Positions 17,611-50,142 of a stretch of DNA of 64,000 nt are shown in pieces. The position numbers were made by a program, and so were the translations under genes. The notes below the pieces were generated by a model. It was given only the letters and a program-made list of their open reading frames with translations, had not been told where the DNA came from and made no database searches. Numbering within the stretch: position 1 is the stretch's first letter; each line of letters starts with the position of its first letter. Location: contig CM075987.1 of the NCBI GenBank assembly GCA_038087875.1, positions 18,230,001-18,294,000 of the forward strand. Reading direction: 5' to 3'. The DNA comes from Malacoraja senta. Lineage: Eukaryota.

Positions 17611-19807
17611 GAACAAAGGGGACAATGAAGGCATGACAGCGGAGCTCGCCAAGGTTGACTGGAAAGGGATCCTAGCCGGAATGACGTGGAACAGCAATGG
17701 CAGGAATTTCTGGGCATAATCGAAGATGCAGGATCATTTCATTCCAAAAAGGAAGAAAGATTCTAAGGGGAGTAGGAGGCAACCGTGGCTGACAAGAGAA
17801 GTTAGGGATAGAATAAAACTAAAAGAAAAGATGGTATAACACAGCAAAGAGTAGCCGGAAGCCAGAGGATTGGGAAACTTTCATAGGACAACAGAAGGAA
17901 ACAAAACGGGCAATACGGGCTGAAAAGATGAAGTACGAGGGGAAGCTGGCCAGGAATATAAAGGACAGTAAAAGCTTCTTTAGATATGTTAAGGGAAAAA
18001 GAGTAGCAAAGTCAAATGTGAGTCCCTTGAAGGCAGACACGGGTGAAATTAATTATGGGCAACAAGGAAATGGCAGAAGAGTTGAATAGGTACTTTGGAA
18101 TGTCTTCACAAAGGAAGACACAAACAATCTCCCAGAAGTACTAGAGGACAGAGGATCTAATGGGGTAGAGGACTGAAAGAAATTTTCATTAGGCGTGAAA
18201 TAGTATTGGGTAGGGTAATGGGACTGAAGGATGATAAATTCCCTGGGCCTGATGGTCTGCATCCCAGGGTCATCATGGAGGTGGCTCTAGAAATAGTGGA
18301 CGCATTGGTGATCATTTTCCAATGTTCAATAGATTCAGGATCAGTTACTGTGGATTGGAGGATAGCTAATGTTATCCCACTTTGCAAGAAAGGAGCAAGA
18401 GAGAAAATGGGGAATTACAGACCAGTTAGCCTGACTTCCAGGGTGGGGAAAGATGCTGGAGTCAAATATTAAAGAGGTAATAATGGGCATTTGGATAGCA
18501 GTAAAATGATTAGTCCAAGTCAGCATGGTTTTATGAAAGGAAAATCATGCTCGACTAATCTTCTGGAATTTTTTGAGGATGTGACAAGCAAAATGGATGA
18601 AGGGGAGCCAGTGGATGTAGGTGTATCGAGACTTTCAGATGCCTTTGATAAGGTCCCGCACGGGAGACTGGTGACTAAAATTAGAGCACATGGTATTGGG
18701 GGCAGGGTGTTGACATGGATAGAAAATTGGTTAACACACAGGAAGCAAAGAGTAGGAATGAACGGGTCCTTTTCAGAATGGCAGGCAGTGGCGAGTGGAG
18801 TGCCGCAAGGCTCGGTGTTGGGGCCACAACTGTTTATCATATATATTAATGATTTGGAAGAGGGAATTAGTAGCAACACCAGCAAGTTTGCGGATGACAC
18901 AAAGCTGGGTGGCAGTGTGAACAGTGAAGAGGATGGATGTTAGGAGGTTGCAGGGTGACCTCGGCAGGTTGATGTGTGTGGGCAGATGCAGTATAATATA
19001 GATAAATGTGAGGTTATCCACTTTGGTGGCAAAAACAAGGGGTCAGATTATTATCTCAATGGGGTTAGGTTAGGTTAGGGGGAGGTACAGCGAGGCCTGG
19101 GTGTCCTTGTACACCGGTCACTGAAAGTTGGTGTGCAGGTACAGCAGGCAGTGAAGAAAACTCATGGAATGTTGGCCATCATAACAAGAGGATTTCAGTA
19201 TAGGAGTAGAGGTTCGTCTGCAGTTGTATAGGGCTCTGGTGATACCACATCTGGAGTATTGTGTACAGTTTTGGTCTCCTCATTTGAGGAAGGACACCCT
19301 TGTGAATGAGGCAGTGCAGCGTAGGTTCACGAGATTGATTCCTGGGATGGCGGGACTGTCATATGAGGAAAGATTGAAAAGACTAGGCTTGTATTCACTG
19401 GAGTTCAGAAGGATGAGGGGGATCTTATAGAAACATAAATATATAAAAGGACTGTACAAGCTAGATGCAGGAAAAATGTTCCCAATGTTGGGCGAGTCCA
19501 AAACCAGGGGCCACAGTCTTAGAATAAAGGGAAGGTCATTTAAGTCTGAGGTGAGAAAAAACGTTTTCACCCAGAGAGTTTGTGAATTTATGGAATTCCC
19601 TGCCACAGAGGGCAGTGGAGGCCAAATCACTGGATGGATTTAAGAGAGAGTTAGATAGAGCTCTAGGGGCTAGTGGAGTCAAGGGATATGGGGAGAAGGC
19701 AGGCACAGGTTATTGATTGGGGACAATCAGCCATGATCACAAATGAATGCCGGTGCTGGCGCGAAGGGCCGAATGGCCTCCTCCTGCACCTATTTTCTGT
19801 TTCTATA
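17611..19807 (+). mobile_element. Degenerate CR1 ORF2 (RT) with 3' tail
   Basis: [45 protein letters not shown]; multiple frameshifts. Confidence 0.93.
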
Positions 19808-42339: not shown

Positions 42340-43510
42340 ATTTTGTTGCATATCCTTTGCATTGCTTGAAGTCTGCGATTCATGGACATCAGCAGTTGAG
42401 TTGCTGGGTGTGGAAATGTGGGCCGTTATCAGAACTTTTAACAGAGGGTAGCCCGAATCTTGGAATAATTTCTCTTAACAATAATGTTACAGTCGTTTCA
42501 GCTTTATTATTAGTGGTTGGTAGAGCTTCAATCCATCTACTAAATAAATCCAGTATAACTAAGCATTGTAGCATTGAGCCTTTGGCATTTCAATAAAATC
42601 AATCTGAATGCACGTGCTGGCATTGATGTTACCCCAGGGGGTATTTTAATGGGTTTGCCCAGGATTACCTTTCTGGCGAATCCTTCATTCGGAGGCCTGT
42701 TTTAGAGCTTCCTGACGAATTTTTGGATGCCACCATGTCTCCTTTGTCATCCTAATCATTACCCCTTTCCAGAATGTGTGAGGGAGTGTATATAGGTTAG
42801 GAGTGTGGGTAAGAATGCATCGGGTACACAAACTTGTCCAAGTGGGGTTAGCCAAAGTCCTGTGGTGGAATCAATGGCGCAACCCTCTTGTTTCCATTTT
42901 TGTTTTTCATGTTCAGAGGCATGTAATTCTTTAACCTCCCTCATGTCTGGCAAGACCGTTCTATTTACTAGCACTGTACTCCCTGGGGGCACCCGGTTAT
43001 GTGATCTATGGGCTGCATCCTTGGCGATCTGATCTGCGTGTGCTCCCATATGGGCATTGGATTTTATAATAGCCAATTGCTTCGGTAGCTTAAGTGCCTT
43101 TCAAAAGTTGCTTACAAAAAAGGCATTCTTAATCAGGGTGCCTGCGGCTGTGCGAAATCCTCTGTGTTGCCAAAGTGCTCAAAAATCGTGGGCTACTCCG
43201 AAAGCATACCTAGAGACCGTATAGATATTAGTGCATTTGTTCTCAGCTAATATACATGCTCTTGTCAGTGCAAATAATTCAGCCTGCTGTGCTGACAGAG
43301 GGTTTTGGAATCGTCCTTCTTCTAGGACCATCTGTGATTAATTTACAATGGAATAGCCTGAGGCTCGTTTACCTGCTTCAGGTACAACCATGGAAGAGCC
43401 ATCCACAAACCATTTAGACTGGACGTCTACTAATGGTACATCAGAAAGTCCGTCTCTGATATTGGGCAGAATGTTGTTGGCTTGTTCGCAATCATGCGAA
43501 GGGTCTTTGC
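42340..43510 (-). mobile_element. ERV pol fragment 3 (RNase H and integrase), defective, opposite strand
   Basis: WFVDGSS, HSLTHSGKG (IN zinc-binding HH), DLFSRWIEALPT, EIIPRFGLP..SSDNGPHF. Confidence 0.9.
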
Positions 43511-44540
43511 AGACAATAGGTGCAGGAGCAGGCCATTTGGCCCATCGAGCCAGCACCGCCATTCAATGTGATCACGGCTGATCATCCCCAATCAGTACCC
43601 TGTTCCGGCCTTCTCCCCATATCCCCTGACTCCGCTATTTTTAAAAGCCCTATCTAGCTCTCTCTTGAAAGCATCCAGAGAACCTGCCTCCACTGCCTTC
43701 TGAGGCAGAGAATTCCAGACTTCAACAACTCTCCGTGAGAAAAAGTGTTTCCTCATCTCCGTTCTAAATGGCTTACTCCTTATTCTTAAACTGTGGCCCC
43801 TGGTTCTGGACTTGCCCAACATTGGGAACATTTTTCCTGCATCTAGCTTGTCCAGTCCTTTTATAATTGTATATGTTTCTCTAAGATCCCCCCTCATCCT
43901 AAACTCCAGTGAATACAAGCCTATTCTTTTCAATCTTTCCTCATATGACAGTCCCGCCATCCCAAGGATCAATCTCGTGAACCTACGCTGCGCTGCCTCA
44001 ATCACAAGGAAGTCCTTCCTCAAATTAGGAGACCAAACTGTACACAATACTCCAGATGTGGTCTCACCAGTCCTATACAACTGCAGAAGAACCTCTTTAC
44101 TCCTATACTGAAATCCTCTTGTTATGAAGGCCAACATCCCATTAGCTTTCTTCACTGCCTGCTGTACCTGTAAGCCAACTTCCAAAAGCACACAAGCTTC
44201 TTGGCCAGATTTATGAATCTGAAGGTGACATTGAAAAAGCCATTGGTTGTTATAAGCGAGTGTACAAGGACGCCCCGGTCTCGCTGCACCTCCCCCTTAC
44301 CCAACCTAACCCCATTGAGATAATAATCTGCCCCCTTGTTTTTGCCGCCAAAGTGGATAACCTCACATTTATCTATATTATACTGCATCTGCCACGCATC
44401 TGCCCACTCACTCAACATGTCCAGGTCACCCTGCAACCTCCTAACATCCTCTTCACAGCTCACACTGCCACCCAGCTTTGTGTCATCCGCAAACTTGCTA
44501 GTGTTGCTCCTAATTCCTTCTGACAAATCATTAATATATA
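43511..44540 (-). mobile_element. CR1 3' fragment carrying a foreign 78-bp insert
   Basis: ORFs 43592-44191 and 44152-44526 with CR1 RT motifs. Confidence 0.9.
44182..44259 (+). pseudogene. RANBP2: Captured RANBP2-like (Nup358 N-terminal TPR) coding fragment
   Basis: Translates PKAHKLLGQIYESEGDIEKAIGCYKR, which aligns without gaps to vertebrate RANBP2 (human, from memory: PKAHRFLGLLYELEENTDKAVECYRR); absent from other CR1 copies in the window. Confidence 0.75.
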
Positions 44541-45755
44541 TGGATGTGTTGTATCTGGACTTTCAGAAGGCTTTCGACAAGGTACCACATAAGAGATTAG
44601 GATACAAACTTAAATCACACGGTATTGGGGGTTCAGTATTGATGTGGATAGAGAACTGGCTGGCAAACAGGAAGCAAAGAGTAGGAGTAAACGGGTCCTT
44701 TTCACAATGGCAGGCAGTGACTAGTGGGGTACCGCAAGGCTCAGTGCTGGGACCCCAGCTATTTACAATTTATATTAATGATCTGGACGAGGGAATTGAA
44801 AGCAACATCTCCAAGTTTGCGGATGACACTAAGCTGGGGGGCAGTGTTAGCTGTGAGGAGGATGCTAGGAGACTGCAAGGTGACTTGGATAGGCTGGGTG
44901 AGTGGGCAAATGTTTGGCAGATGCAGTATAATGTGGATAAATGTGAGGTTATTCACTTTGGTGGCAAAAACGGGAAGGCAGACTATTATCTAAATGGTGG
45001 CCGATTAGGAAATGGGGAGATGCAGCGAGACCTGGGTGTCATGGTACACCAGTCATTGAAAGTAGGCATGCAGGTGCAGCAGGCAGTGAAGAAAGCGAAT
45101 GGTATGTTGGCCTTCATAGCAAGAGGATTTGAGTATAGGAGCAGGGAGGTTCTACTGCAGTTGTACAGGGTCTTGGTGAGACCACACCTGGAGTATTGCG
45201 TACAGTTTTGGTCTCCAAATCTGAGGAAGGACATTATAGCCATAGAGGGAGTGCAGAGAAGGTTCACCAGACTGATTCCTGGGATGTCAGGACTTTCATG
45301 TGAAGAAAGACTGGATAGACTTGGCTTATACTCGCTAGAATTTAGGAGATTGAGAGGGGATCTTATAGAAACGTACAAAATTCTTATGGGGTTGGACAGC
45401 CTAGATGCAGGAAGATTGTTCCCGATGTTGGGGAAGTCCAGGACAAGGGGTCACAGCTTAAGGATAAGGGGGAAATCCTTTAAGACCGAGATGAGGAAAA
45501 ACTTTTTCACACAGAGAGTGGTGAATCTCTGGAACTCTCTGCCACAGAGGGTAGTTGAGGCCAGTTCATTGGCTATATTTAAGAGGGAGTTAGATGTGGC
45601 CCTTGTGGGTAAAGGGATCAGGGGGTATGGAGAGTAGGCAGGTACGGGATACTGAGTTGGATGATCAGCCATGATCATATTGAATGGCAGTGCAGGCTCG
45701 AAGGGCCGAATGGCCTACTCCTGCACCTATTTTCTATGTATCTATGTATCTATGT
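44541..45755 (+). mobile_element. 5'-truncated CR1 (RT open to near its end) with tail
   Basis: DVLYLDFQKAFDKVPH...GIRGYGE*, then (TCTATGTA)n tail. Confidence 0.95.
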
Positions 45756-46230: not shown

Positions 46231-47460
46231 ACGTGGTTGGCGCGCTGAACCAAGAAACCGCCGCCCGATTGATTCCGTACCTTCAACATCCGCCTGCCGA
46301 CAACAAGTGTGAGGGGCTTAAGGCACTTTCGGGCTCAGCCGCCGCGATCGAGTCACCAGGATCCTGCACATGGATGCCATCAGTGACCACATGTCGGTGC
46401 TGATGAGCGAGATGCTGTCGCTAACGGACGGTAACCGGCCTTTCTCCTCTTCGAGCAGGCTTTCCTCGAGCAGATGCCCGACGACATTGAAACATAGAAA
46501 CTAGGTGCATGAGGCCATTCGGCCCTTCGAGCCAGCATTCATTGTGATCATGGCTGATCATCCCCTATCAATAATCCGTGCCTGCCTTCTCCCCATATCC
46601 CTTGACTCCACTAGCCCCTAGAGCTCTATCTAACTCTCTCTTAAATCCATCCAGTGACTTGGGCTCCACAGCCCTCTGTGGCAGGGAATTCCATAAATTC
46701 ACAACTCTCTGGGTGAAAACGTTTTTTCTCACCTCAGTCTTAAACGACCTCCCCTTTATTCTAAGACTGTGGCCCCTGGTTCTGGACTTGCCCAACATTG
46801 GGAACATTTTTCCTGCATCTAGCTTGTCTAGTCCTTTTATAATTTTATATGTTTTTATTAGATTCCCCCTCATCCTTCTAAACTCCAGTGAATACAAGCC
46901 TAGTCTTTTCAATCTTTCCTCATGACAGTCCCGCCATCCCAGGGATCAATCTTGTGAACCTACGCTGCACTGCCTCAATCACAAGGATGTCCTTCCTCAA
47001 ATTAGGAGACCAAAACTGTACACAATACTCCAGATGTGGTCTCACCAGAGCCCTATACAACTGCAGAAGAACCCTTTACTCATGTACTGAAATCCTCTTG
47101 TTATGAAGGCCAACATTCCATTAGCTTTCTTCACTGCCTGCTGTACCTGTAAGCCAACTTTCAGTGACTGGTGTACAAGGACGCCCAGGTCTCGCTGCAC
47201 CTCCCCCTTACCTAACCTAACCCCATTGAGATAATAATCTGCCCCCTTATTTTTGCCTCCAAAGTGGATAACCTCACATTTATCTATATTATACTGCATA
47301 CGGGCTGCATACGGGATCCGCCTGCTCCTCGCTGCTAGCGACTTCGCCGACCCGCTGCAACTCGCCGAGCAAGCGGACGAGCTGTGCCTCGCCAAGCAAC
47401 AAGATGGCCCTGGAGCGGGTGGAACAGCGTCCGGGCGGTGAGTTTCAAAACGGAGCGCGG
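46231..47460 (+). mobile_element. Ty3/Gypsy-type gag remnant (46231-46488 and 47300-47460) split by a CR1
   Basis: VVGALNQETAARL..YLQHPPADNK, LMSEMLSL, LFEQAFLEQMPDDI|RLLLAASDFADPLQLAEQADEL. Confidence 0.7.
46489..47298 (-). mobile_element. CR1 3' fragment
   Basis: ORF 46568-46912 and CR1 tail. Confidence 0.92.
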
Positions 47461-47544
47461 GGCTTTGTTCCACAGAGGTCCAGGAGCGGCTGGTGCAGCG
47501 TTGCCCACTCTGCAACATTCCATCACACTTCAAAACAAGTGGTC

Positions 47545-50142
47545 TAGAGGAAGCCGCTGATTGGTGGAAGCGGACTAGAGGAAGCAGCTGATTGGGAGTA
47601 ACCCCAGATACTACCTTAATTAAGGTAAGAGGGGAGTATGAGGGCCAGGGCAGTTTACTGTTCTGGATGTCAGATGTGGGAAGTCATGGAGTCTGATAGC
47701 ATTCCAGATGTCCACATCTGCACCAGGTGCGTCGAGATGGGGCTCCTAAGGGTCCGTATTAGGAACCTGGAGCAGCAGCTCGATGACCTCCGTCTGGTCA
47801 GGGAGAGTGAGGAAGTCATAGAGAGGAGTGATAGAGAGGTGGTCACTCCAAGACCACGGGAGGCAGACAAGTGGGTCAGGGTTAGGAGGGGCCAGGGGCA
47901 GAGGCAGGTAATAGAGAGAACCCCGGTGGCTGTACACCTTGGCAATAAGTACTCCTGTTTGAGTACTGTTGGGGGAGACAGCCTATCTGGGGGTAGCGAC
48001 AGCAGCCGGGCCTCCAGCACAGAGACTGGCCCTGTTGCTCAGAAGGGTAAGGAAAAGAAGAGGAGGGCAATAGTAATAGGGGACTCTATAGTTAGGGTGT
48101 CAGATAGGCGATTCTGTGGACACAGTCAGGAGACCCGGATGGTAGTTTGCCTCCCTGGTGCCAGGGTCTGGGATGTGTCTGAACGTGTCCAAGATATCCT
48201 GAACTGGGAGGGAGAGGAGCCAGAGGTCGTGGTACATATAGGTACCAATGACATTGGTAGTAAAAAGGGAAGAGGTCCTGATAGGAGAATTTAGGGAGTT
48301 AGGAAGAGAGTTAAGGAGAAGGACCGCAAAAGTAATAATCTCAGGATTACTGCGTGTGCCATAATGAGAGTAGGAATGGCGTGAGGTGGAGGAATAATGC
48401 GTGACTGAGGGACTGGTGCAGAGGGCAGGGATTCACGTTTCTGGATCATTGGAACCTCTTTTGGGGAAGGTGTGACCTGTACAAAAAGGACGGGTTGCAC
48501 TTGAACCCGAGTGGAACCAATATCCTGGCGGGGAGATTTGCAAAGGCTACTGGGGAGACTTTAAACTAGAACGGTCGGGGGGAGGGACTCAAATAGAGAA
48601 AGCTAGTAGACAGTGTGTGAGGCAGGAGGCAGAGAAGGGAAGCACTCAGACCCAACATGTAGGGGAGAAAGAAGAAAAAGACAATAAACAGAGAATAAGA
48701 GGTGGTGGGTTTCTTAAATGTGTATATTTTAATGCTAGGAGCACTGTAAGAAAGGTGGATGAGCTTAGAGCCGGGATTGACACCTGAAAGTATGATGTTG
48801 TGGCGATTAGTGAAACATGGTTGCAGGATGGCTGTGATTGGAAACTAAATATTCCAGGATTTCATTGCTTCAGGTGTGATAGAATTGGAGGGGCAAGAGG
48901 TGGAGGTGTTGCATTGCTTGTCAGGGAAGATATTACAGTAGTGCTTTGGCAGGATAGATTAGAGGGCTCGTCTAGGGAGGCTATTTGGGTGGAACTGAGA
49001 AATGGGAAAGGTGTAGCAACACTTATAGGGGTGTTTTATAGACCGCCAAATGGGGAGCGAGAATTGGAAGAGCAAATATGTAAGGAGATAGCAGTAAGGA
49101 GTAAGCACGAGGTAGTGATTGTGGGAGATTTCAATTTTCCACACATAGACTGGGAAACACATTCTGTAAAAGGGCTGGATGGTTTGGAGTTTGTAAAATG
49201 TGTGCAGGATAGTTTTTTGCAGCAATACATAAAGGTACCTACTAGAGAAGGGGCAGTGCTGGACCTCCTGTTAGGAAATGAGACAGGTCAGGTGACGGAG
49301 GTATGTGTTGGGGAGCACTTCGGGTCCAATGATCACAATACGATTAGTTTCAATATAATTATGGAGAAGGTCAGAACTGGACCAAGGGTTGAGATTTTTG
49401 ATTGGAGAAAGGATAACTTTGAGGAGATGCGAATGGATGTAAAAGGAGTGAATTGGGACATGTTGTTTTATGGGAAGGATGTAGAAGAGAAATGGAGGAC
49501 ATTTAAAGGTGACATTTTAAGAGTACAGAATCTTTATGTCCCTGTTCGGTTGAAAGGAAAGAGTAATAATTGGAAAGAGCCATGGTTTTCAAGGGAAATT
49601 GGACACAGTTCGGAAAAAGGCCGGTGACTAGTGGGGTGCCTCAGGGATCTGTGTTGGGTCCACTGTTGTTTGTCATATACATCAATGATCTGGATGATGG
49701 TGTGGTAAATTGGATTAGTAAGTATGCAGATGATACTAAGATAGGTGGTGTTGTGGATAATGAAGTAGATTTTCAAAGTCTACAGAGAGATTTAGGCCAT
49801 TTGGAAGAGTGGGCTGAATAATGGCAGATGGAGTTTAATGCTGATAAGTGTGAGACACTACATCTTGGTAGGATAAATCAAAATAGGACGTACATGGTAA
49901 ATGGTAGCGAATTGAGGAATGCAGTTGGACAGAGGGATCTAGGAATAACTGTGCATAGTTCCCTGAAGGTGGAATCTCATGTCAATAGGGTGGTAAAGAA
50001 AGCTTTTGGTGTGCTGGCCTTTATAAATCATAGCATTGAGTATAGAAGTTGGGATGTAATGTTAAAATTGTACAAGGGATTGGTGAGGCCAATTCTGGAA
50101 TATGGTGTACAATTCTGGTAGCCAAATTATAGGAAATATGTC
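47545..50142 (+). mobile_element. CR1 with 5' UTR, ORF1 (CxxC..CxxC, coiled coil, SGNH esterase), APE, internal deletion into RT; runs into the gap
   Basis: ORF 47638-48294 (CSGC..CTRC, VIGDSIVR, HIGTND), ORF 48800-49627 (SETWL, GDFNFP, NDH), deletion junction near 49610. Confidence 0.93.

What the first reader, a model, noticed from the sequence alone, without database searches (positions are those of the whole stretch)
44182..44259. 78-bp RANBP2-like coding fragment patched into a CR1 element, possibly from spliced mRNA
Seen: a sister CR1 copy reads TAAGCCAACTT-TCAGTGACTG-GTGTACAAG (about 47151-47180). Here those 10 middle bases are replaced by 78 bp with no TSD and no poly(A), translating cleanly as PKAHKLLGQIYESEGDIEKAIGCYKR. 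Knowledge, from memory: this matches the N-terminal TPR of RANBP2/Nup358, and in human an intron falls right after the CY(R/K) codons. The insert continues AAG-CG rather than AAG-GT, hinting at a spliced template, though only by 2 nt. It is antisense to the host CR1, which fits a templated insertion at a double-strand break better than a template switch during TPRT (inference).
Basis: partly seen in the sequence, partly recalled or inferred. Interest (0 to 1): 0.72.

Follow-up and report, generated by a model that had tools for sequence, protein, structure and literature searches.

The report
Spliced RANBP2 mRNA patch inside LINE
A 78-base piece copied from the spliced messenger RNA of the nuclear-pore gene RANBP2 sits inside an old jumping-gene copy, most likely as a scar of break repair: a tidy example of a known process.

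Summary
At 44182-44259, 78 bp replace 10 bp (TCAGTGAC[C/T]G) of a CR1-like LINE copy. The sister copy and 28 of 28 other genomic copies examined are uninterrupted.

The 26 encoded residues match RanBP2/Nup358 residues 60-85: 24/26 to a canonical RANBP2 representative, and Nup358 in the PDB.

Laid public contigs give the decisive evidence. A 9,624-nt contig of a probable RNA run matches 44181-44261 without a mismatch and continues as RANBP2 coding sequence on both sides. DNA-run contigs of two organisms match only 44181-44256 and then diverge. So the exon ends after ...TATAAG, and the patch carries CGA from the next exon: the template was spliced.

The junctions show 1-nt and 2-nt microhomology, a 10-bp deletion, no target-site duplication and no poly(A). 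This fits a class 2 templated sequence insertion, meaning double-strand-break repair with reverse-transcribed RNA.

A template jump during second-strand synthesis of the LINE is not excluded.

Caveats: the canonical RANBP2 gene was not found in the held assembly, and no served run spans the junctions.

This is a new member of a known kind, of moderate interest.

The parts
44182..44259 (+). 78-bp patch in RANBP2 mRNA sense. It encodes RanBP2 residues about 60-85 (first TPR). The last 3 nt (CGA, 44257-44259) come from the exon downstream of a splice junction.
   Evidence: the RNA-type contig (X3) is identical over 44181-44261; the DNA-run contigs (X6, X9) are identical over 44181-44256 only.
44181..44181 (+). 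Left junction: 1 nt (T) shared by the LINE (..CCAACTT) and the mRNA (..GGGAT|CCA). Microhomology.
   Evidence: all three gene contigs start matching at 44181; the X3 loose end before 44181 ends ...GGGA. LINE copies.
44260..44261 (+). Right junction: 2 nt (GT) shared by the LINE (GTGTACAAGG) and the mRNA (CGA|GTTGTTGAA). Microhomology.
   Evidence: the X3 contig matches to 44261 and its loose end continues TGTTGAACTG...; LINE copies.
43511..44181 (-). 3' portion of the host CR1-like LINE copy (copy A; C-terminal ORF2 and 3' end). 43511-43790 is much more divergent than the rest.
   Evidence: Extent from blastn against 28 genomic copies. The minus-strand ORF at 43592-44296 reads ...LQVQQAVKKANGMLAF...
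44260..44543 (-). 5' portion of the same 5'-truncated LINE copy (reverse-transcriptase C-terminal region, ..[18 protein letters not shown]).
47161..47170 (+). The 10 bp (TCAGTGACTG) present in the sister copy, which runs from about 46570 to 47295 on the minus strand. These 10 bp are lost at the patch site in copy A.
44544..45750 (+). A second copy of the same kind of LINE, 5'-truncated and meeting copy A head to head. It has an RVT_1 domain and a 3' tail of 8-bp repeats (CTATGTAT).

Best explanation
A chromosome break inside an already resident, dead CR1-like LINE copy was mended by end joining, with a short filler copied from the host's spliced RANBP2 mRNA.

Proposed steps (inferred):
1. The break lost 10 bp of LINE sequence.
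2. The 3' end of the bottom strand on the right side (...TACAC-3') paired through 2 nt with GU just past the codon CGA of the mRNA.
3. A reverse-transcribing polymerase copied 78 nt towards the mRNA's 5' end. This could be the reverse transcriptase of the abundant young LINE family, or a repair polymerase such as Pol theta.
4. The new strand was joined to the left end through 1 nt of microhomology.
5. The gap was filled in.

A ready-made cDNA fragment captured by end joining would leave the same scar.

The patch has no function: it is a neutral, heritable repair scar.

Shown: the patch, the 10-bp loss, the absence of target-site duplication and poly(A), the RANBP2 identity, the microhomologies, and the crossing of an exon junction. 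Inferred: the break, the enzyme, the order of steps, and that the event came after the LINE's integration.
For: Anatomy. 78 bp replace 10 bp with no duplicated flank and no A-tail. 28 of 28 other copies examined are uninterrupted, and the 78 bp occur nowhere else in the assembly except the C900 twin of this locus. The patch is therefore private to this copy and was not inherited from a master element.

Source.
- 24/26 residues are identical to canonical RANBP2 representative P0012 at 61-86, which then continues VVELNP.
- Six further multi-RanBD proteins align over all 26 residues (69-81% identity). Five do so at position 60-85 and one (P0045) at 34-59.
- PDB Nup358 matches at 60-85.

Spliced template.
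- Run X3 (organism B): a 9,624-nt contig matches 44181-44261 with 0 differences.
- Its loose ends read, by my hand translation, SAYIKEQER-D before and VVELNPMQKD after. That is RANBP2 coding sequence in frame.
- The match starts 305 nt from the contig end, as expected for residue 60 plus a 5' UTR of about 125 nt.
- DNA-run contigs X9 (same organism B, 514 nt) and X6 (organism D, 506 nt) match 44181-44256 with 0 differences. They then run on for 187 and 172 nt without matching.
- If the template had been genomic DNA, the copy would have to end exactly at the exon end, and 3 added bases would have to equal the next exon's first 3 (1/64).

Type of event. Microdeletion, microhomology, and no target-site duplication or poly(A) are the criteria given for class 2 templated sequence insertions. 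cDNAs with spliced exons are among their known templates (PMC5110952, passages read).
Against: - No read-level proof of the junctions. In one search no served run held more than 0.33 of the 18 sampled words. In one search no contig of the 4 laid runs bridged LINE and patch. Support for the junctions is the assembly alone (C11 and its near-identical twin C900).
- The parent gene was not found in the host assembly. The identity to the host's own RANBP2 and the intron position are therefore taken from other, evidently related, organisms.
- X3 is labelled 'RNA?' (a guess). That it is RNA is my inference from its spliced form and from a 9.6-kb contig at depth 84.5 in a run of 100 million letters.
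- Timing is unresolved. Copy A has 14 private substitutions in about 665 bp around the patch (2.1%), so 1.6 would be expected in 78 bp if the patch were equally old. None is seen, P about 0.19.
- The splice-junction evidence rests on 3 unambiguous bases.
Confidence: 0.66

Rival explanations
1. Retrotransposition-coupled template jump. While this LINE copy was being integrated, the polymerase making the second (sense) strand left the first-strand cDNA. It copied 78 nt of a nearby RANBP2 mRNA and returned to the cDNA 10 nt further on.
For: - Orientation fits. A jump to a sense mRNA during second-strand synthesis puts the mRNA sense on the strand opposite to the LINE sense, as seen (inference).
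- The same 1-2 nt microhomologies would serve a template jump.
- The copy is odd in other ways. It is 5'-truncated and abuts another copy head to head, and its 3' 280 bp are unusually divergent.
- The family is young and abundant, so its reverse transcriptase was available.
- Zero substitutions in the patch are compatible with equal age (P about 0.19).
Against: - 28 of 28 other copies examined have no such internal patch.
- Known reverse-transcriptase template-switch chimeras (U6/L1 type; recalled, not from a call) are joined in the same sense at the 5' end and are not internal out-and-back excursions.
- A first-strand switch is excluded by orientation.
- No direct evidence ties the patch to the integration event.
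Confidence: 0.2
2. DNA-templated patch. The filler was copied from, or cut out of, a processed RANBP2 retrocopy (DNA) elsewhere in the genome during break repair, not from RNA or fresh cDNA.
For: It would also carry the exon-exon junction. The assembly is incomplete for RANBP2 sequences, so a retrocopy could be missing too.
Against: No second copy of the 78 bp exists in the assembly. The 30 nt that follow it in the mRNA are also absent, with 0 matches at up to 3 mismatches. The RANBP2 N-terminal 760 aa hit nothing but the patch.
Confidence: 0.07
3. Genomic-exon template. The patch was copied from the RANBP2 gene's DNA, ending at the exon end, and CGA is untemplated filler.
For: 76 of the 78 bp lie within one exon.
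Against: It needs the copy to stop exactly at the exon boundary, and it needs three random bases to equal the next exon's first three (1/64). The RNA-type contig explains all 81 matched bases without any coincidence.
Confidence: 0.03
4. Assembly artefact, such as a chimeric read holding cDNA.
For: No independent reads could be laid across the junctions. C900 may be built from the same library.
Against: - The patch is bounded on both sides by the same LINE copy in register, with microhomology and a clean 10-bp loss.
- It is only 78 bp long.
- It is present in two assembled contigs that differ at 2 of 6,278 compared bases.
Confidence: 0.04

Closest known systems
Class 2 templated sequence insertions / polymorphisms (TSI, TSIP; Onozawa et al. 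2014, 2015, as reviewed in PMC5110952)
   Same: A short insert templated from a distant transcribed locus. No target-site duplication, no poly(A) and no polyadenylation signal. Microdeletion and microhomology at the junctions. Spliced cDNA is a known template. Heritable, so of germline or early-embryo origin.
   Different: Found in a non-human vertebrate genome rich in young CR1-like LINEs. It is a single case. Polymorphism and an intact donor site could not be checked. Only 3 (+2) bases cross the exon junction.
Endonuclease-independent LINE-1 insertion at DNA breaks (Morrish et al. 2002, cited in PMC5110952) and Ty1/LINE cDNA capture at HO breaks in yeast (Teng et al. 1996, cited there)
   Same: Reverse-transcribed RNA used to seal a break, without target-site duplication and often without a tail.
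   Different: Here the template is a cellular mRNA fragment of 78 nt taken from near its 5' end, not retrotransposon RNA.
[quoted passage not shown]
   Same: A DNA end is extended on an RNA template with little homology.
   Different: Those systems mostly use homologous transcripts of the broken locus. Here the RNA is unrelated to the broken site.
Processed pseudogenes / class 1 TSIPs made by LINE target-primed reverse transcription
   Same: An mRNA-derived copy placed in a new locus.
   Different: No poly(A), no target-site duplication and no 3' end of the mRNA. Instead a 10-bp loss. The defining features were tested and not met.
NUMT or filler-DNA capture at naturally occurring breaks (PMC2567098, listing only)
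   Same: Foreign short DNA sealing a break by end joining during genome evolution.
   Different: The source is a nuclear spliced mRNA, not organelle DNA.

Membership tests
Class 2 templated sequence insertion (TSI/TSIP) | Insert is templated from a distant locus, not random filler | tested here: met
   81/81 nt identical to a RANBP2 transcript-type contig, and 76/76 to DNA-run contigs of two organisms. 24/26 aa identical to canonical RANBP2. The donor was seen in related organisms' runs, not in the host assembly.
Class 2 templated sequence insertion (TSI/TSIP) | No target-site duplication | tested here: met
   The flanks ..AAGCCAACTT and GTGTACAAGG.. are consecutive LINE sequence minus 10 bp. 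Nothing is duplicated.
Class 2 templated sequence insertion (TSI/TSIP) | No poly(A) tract or polyadenylation signal | tested here: met
   The insert ends ...TATAAGCGA. It has no A-run and no AATAAA.
Class 2 templated sequence insertion (TSI/TSIP) | End-joining marks: microdeletion, microhomology or untemplated bases | tested here: met
   10-bp deletion. 1-nt and 2-nt microhomology. No untemplated bases.
Class 2 templated sequence insertion (TSI/TSIP) | RNA-derived template | tested here: met
   The patch carries CGA(+GT) of the next exon. DNA-run contigs diverge after 44256 while the RNA-type contig continues. This rests on 3 unambiguous bases and on a run whose RNA label is a guess.
Class 2 templated sequence insertion (TSI/TSIP) | Donor locus remains intact (copy, not cut-and-paste) | not testable with these tools
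   Canonical RANBP2 was not found in the held assembly.
Class 2 templated sequence insertion (TSI/TSIP) | Polymorphic or datable presence/absence among individuals | not testable with these tools
   No served run holds the junction words.
Processed pseudogene / class 1 TSIP (LINE endonuclease + TPRT) | Target-site duplication, poly(A) tail, 3' end of the mRNA | tested here: not met
   None of the three is present. The fragment comes from about nt 305-385 of a transcript contig of about 9.6 kb.
Reverse-transcriptase template-switch chimera of first-strand synthesis (U6/L1 type) | Captured RNA joined in the same sense as the LINE | tested here: not met
   The patch is antisense to the LINE ORF.
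RANBP2/Nup358 gene (functional member) | Four RanBP1 domains, zinc fingers, IR1-M, cyclophilin domain, full N-terminal TPR region | tested here: not met
   Only 26 codons are present. The N-terminal 760 aa of P0012 match nothing else at this locus. It is a fragment, not a gene.
CR1-type LINE (host element) | Reverse-transcriptase ORF and a 3' end with 8-nt repeats instead of poly(A). The criterion is recalled, not from a call. | tested here: met
   RVT_1 in the adjoining copy. CTATGTAT repeats at its 3' end.

The most novel reading that the evidence does not exclude
The patch was written by the CR1-like element's own replication machinery. During second-strand synthesis of this very insertion, the polymerase jumped onto a cellular mRNA and back. 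If so, young CR1 copies in this genome would carry many such internal, antisense, spliced-mRNA patches. That would be an undescribed way for non-LTR elements to scatter exon fragments, and a readout of which mRNAs sit near retrotransposition complexes in the germline.
Probability: 0.2. Interest if true: 0.55.

Novelty: new member of a known kind. Interest (0 to 1): 0.38.

Why it matters
Natural, heritable examples in which a splice junction proves that RNA was the template of a repair patch are described mainly for humans. A clean case in another vertebrate lineage shows that RNA-templated filler synthesis acts in the germline beyond mammals. It also gives a simple search recipe for measuring how often this happens and which reverse transcriptase is responsible: short coding matches without target-site duplication or poly(A), inside repeats whose sister copies give the empty site. 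For annotation, it warns that a perfect 26-codon RANBP2 match here is a scar, not an exon.

Tried and rejected
- **Host parent gene: not found.**
  - The 78-bp DNA and the 26-aa searches of the assembly hit only the window and its C900 twin.
  - The PF00638 and PF12185 searches found a gene at C1:274.87 Mb. It proved to be a paralogue with one RanBD plus IR1-M.
  - The 120 kb upstream of it hold no match to the patch.
  - The 30 nt following the patch in the mRNA gave 0 matches.
  - The N-terminal 760 aa of P0012 hit only the patch.
  - P0045 hit only the paralogue, a RanBP1-like gene on C4, cyclophilin exons and the patch, under a stricter first look.
- **The search for homologous proteins.** It found nothing with a 40-residue region in the 220-2000 aa range, and nothing with the paralogue's RanBD in the 1828-5000 aa range.
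- **Sequencing runs.** No RNA holder is listed as such. No run holds half or more of the 18 sampled words, the best share being 0.33. No laid contig spans the LINE-patch junctions. This is no evidence for or against the junctions.
- **Dating the patch against the LINE.** Indecisive, P about 0.19.
- **Twin-priming explanation for the head-to-head LINE pair.** Rejected, because the plus-strand copy overlaps the same LINE region as copy A instead of continuing upstream of it.
- **Earlier scan notes.** None found.
- **125-aa open frame.** The plus-strand frame through the patch (44146-44523) is read-through of antisense LINE sequence and is not taken as a gene.

Full report
**1. Observation**

The window reads ...CTGTACCTGTAAGCCAACTT | CCAAAAGC...TATAAGCGA | GTGTACAAGGACGCC... 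with the middle part at 44182-44259. The sister copy reads ...GTAAGCCAACTT | TCAGTGACTG | GTGTACAAGG... at 47150-47179. A pairwise alignment puts the 78 bp in place of those 10 bp, with about 95% identity on both sides.

The 78 bp translate without a stop as PKAHKLLGQIYESEGDIEKAIGCYKR. No flank is duplicated and there is no A-run.

The element is a reverse-transcriptase-bearing LINE on the minus strand. Its frames read ..[18 protein letters not shown] on one side of the patch and ..LQVQQAVKKANGMLAF.. on the other. An adjoining copy of the same kind has an RVT_1 domain and ends in CTATGTAT repeats. That tail is the CR1 type of 3' end (recalled criterion).

**2. Is the patch private to this copy?**

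- A 200-bp query across the empty site of the sister copy gave 446 first-look candidates in the 1.94-Gb assembly. Of these, 40 were scored (96-100% identical) and 30 loci were returned.
- Two of the 30 are the query's own place and its twin on contig C900. All 28 of the remaining 28 are uninterrupted at the site.
- A third window copy at 19040-19240 is uninterrupted as well.
- The 78 bp themselves occur only in the window and at C900:43875-43952.
- C900 has the same flanks and the same spacing to the sister copy. It differs from the window at 1 of 3,078 and 1 of 3,200 bases. It is therefore the same locus assembled twice, as a haplotig or a duplicate.

**3. What the patch is**

Against PDB sequences, designed consensus TPR proteins score best, because they match several times over. 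The only natural proteins aligned over all 26 residues at one N-terminal place are Nup358/RanBP2. These are 6lk8_S at residues 60-85 (E 2.4e-7), and the human RanBP2 entries 4ga0-4ga2, 7mnl-7mno and 7r5j.

To get full-length relatives I searched 1.84 billion representatives with the RanBD of a host gene and compared the 150 hits with the peptide.

- P0012 (3,210 aa) is 24/26 identical at 61-86.
- Six more multi-RanBD proteins align over all 26 residues at 69-81% identity: P0013, P0014, P0017, P0019 and P0009 at 60-85, and P0045 at 34-59.
- P0012 has 4 Ran_BP1, 7 zinc-ribbon, 2 IR1-M and a cyclophilin domain, and a TPR_1 hit at 61-92. It is a canonical RANBP2.
- After ...CYKR it continues VVELNPVQKD.

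**4. Spliced or genomic template?**

No served sequencing run holds the whole stretch. The best share is 0.33 of 18 sampled words, and 5 of 18 is what the patch alone would give. I laid four runs on 44122-44319.

- **X3** (organism B, 'RNA?', 100 million letters). One contig of 9,624 nt at depth 84.5 matches 44181-44261 with no difference, at contig positions 9240-9320 on the minus strand.
  - It runs on at both sides. My hand translation in the patch's frame gives ..SAYIKEQER-D before and VVELNPMQKD after, which is RANBP2 coding sequence (compare P0012, ..SAYINVQERD and VVELNPVQKD).
  - The match begins 305 nt from the contig end, which fits residue 60 plus a short 5' UTR.
- **X9** (same organism B, 'DNA?') and **X6** (organism D, 'DNA?'). 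Each has one contig (514 and 506 nt) matching 44181-44256 with no difference. They then continue for 187 and 172 nt that do not fit the window.
- **X1** (organism A). A contig ends inside the patch, covering 44181-44245.

So in genomic DNA the exon stops after ...TGTTATAAG, while the transcript goes on CGA GTT GTT. The patch holds CGA (44257-44259).

If the template had been genomic, the copy would have had to end exactly at the exon end, and three added bases would have to equal the next exon's first three (1/64). The spliced-template reading needs no coincidence.

The same data fix the junctions. T at 44181 and GT at 44260-44261 are shared by LINE and mRNA, giving 1-nt and 2-nt microhomology.

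**5. Mechanism**

The features are:
- 10 bp lost;
- 78 bp of unrelated spliced RNA sequence gained;
- 1-2 nt microhomology at the junctions;
- no target-site duplication, no tail and no untemplated bases.

These are the criteria of class 2 templated sequence insertions, which are attributed to end-joining repair of a double-strand break with reverse-transcribed RNA. cDNAs with spliced exons are listed among their templates (PMC5110952, passages read).

The geometry suggests priming from the bottom-strand 3' end on the right side of the break on the GU after CGA. Synthesis would run towards the mRNA 5' end, followed by joining to the left end (inference).

The enzyme is open. Candidates are the reverse transcriptase of the young LINE family, or a repair polymerase with reverse-transcriptase activity (PMC8195485 and PMC12065846, seen as listing and abstract start only).

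**6. Rivals**

- **First-strand template switch during target-primed reverse transcription (TPRT).** Excluded. It would place the mRNA in the LINE's sense, and the patch is antisense.
- **Second-strand template switch.** It gives the observed orientation and cannot be excluded.
- **Dating does not decide between break repair and the second-strand switch.**
  - Copy A has 62 private differences in 943 aligned bases, but 48 of them lie in 43511-43790.
  - The roughly 665 bp around the patch carry 14 (2.1%).
  - That predicts 1.6 changes in 78 bp against 0 seen, P about 0.19.
- **Processed retrocopy as a DNA template.** Not supported by any second copy. The assembly is incomplete for this gene, so this is weak evidence.
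- **Assembly artefact.** Unlikely given the in-register flanks and two contigs, but no reads could be laid across the junctions.

**7. Caveat on the host gene**

The canonical RANBP2 was not found in the held assembly by:
- DNA search;
- peptide search;
- the RanBD profile;
- the downstream 30-mer;
- the N-terminal 760 aa of P0012;
- a 2,217-aa RANBP2 query, run under a stricter first look.

The RanBD/IR1-M gene on C1 is a paralogue. It has a single RanBD, and its representative P0010 is 96% identical with the same two domains. The 120 kb upstream of it have no match to the patch.

Hence the host's own donor sequence and intron position are inferred from related organisms whose exon is 100% identical to the patch.

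**8. Verdict**

The patch is a neutral repair scar of a known kind and has no function. Its value is as a clean, splice-junction-marked natural example outside humans, and as a template for a genome-wide count.

Noticed in passing
whole assembly G000 (no window coordinates): The canonical RANBP2 gene (N-terminal TPR region, multiple RanBDs, zinc fingers) was not found anywhere in the 1.94-Gb held assembly by six different searches. Only the 78-bp patch, a one-RanBD paralogue, a RanBP1-like gene on C4 and cyclophilin exons turned up. The likeliest cause is an assembly gap or a withheld stretch.
   Followed up: partly
G000:C1:274867194-274873945 (L015:1194-4328 and downstream): A gene with a 1,044-aa serine-rich exon ending in a single RanBP1 domain, followed by an IR1-M exon. 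Representatives with the same layout exist: P0010 at 96%, and P0034, P0097 and P0115 at 60-75%. It looks like a RANBP2-derived paralogue without TPR, zinc fingers or cyclophilin.
   Followed up: partly
window 308-64000 versus contig C900: Contig C900 repeats the window's locus almost base for base: 2 differences in 6,278 compared bases, and the same spacing of features. It is a haplotig or a false duplication in the assembly.
   Followed up: partly
window 43511-43790: The 3' 280 bp of LINE copy A carry 48 of its 62 private differences from 29 other copies, while the rest of the copy is ordinary (about 2%). The copy looks like a mosaic of two subfamilies or the product of conversion.
   Followed up: partly
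window 44543/44544: Two 5'-truncated copies of the same kind of LINE meet head to head: minus-strand copy A, and a plus-strand copy running to about 45750 with a CTATGTAT-repeat tail. They overlap in LINE coordinates, so this is not a twin-priming inversion.
   Followed up: partly
window 47296-47600: The sister LINE copy breaks off at about 47295. It is followed by unrelated G+C-rich sequence, and a 213-aa minus-strand open frame (47042-47683) runs from that sequence into the LINE.
   Followed up: no
window 42759-43562, minus strand: Open frames next to the 3' end of copy A (for example ..KQLAIIKSNAHMG....FVDGSSMVV..) look by eye like part of a retroelement pol (RNase H region). This was not tested.
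   Followed up: no
window 44146-44523, plus strand: The patch lies in a 125-codon stop-free frame that continues through antisense LINE sequence. There is no sign that it is a gene, but gene callers may report a TPR-like ORF here.
   Followed up: no
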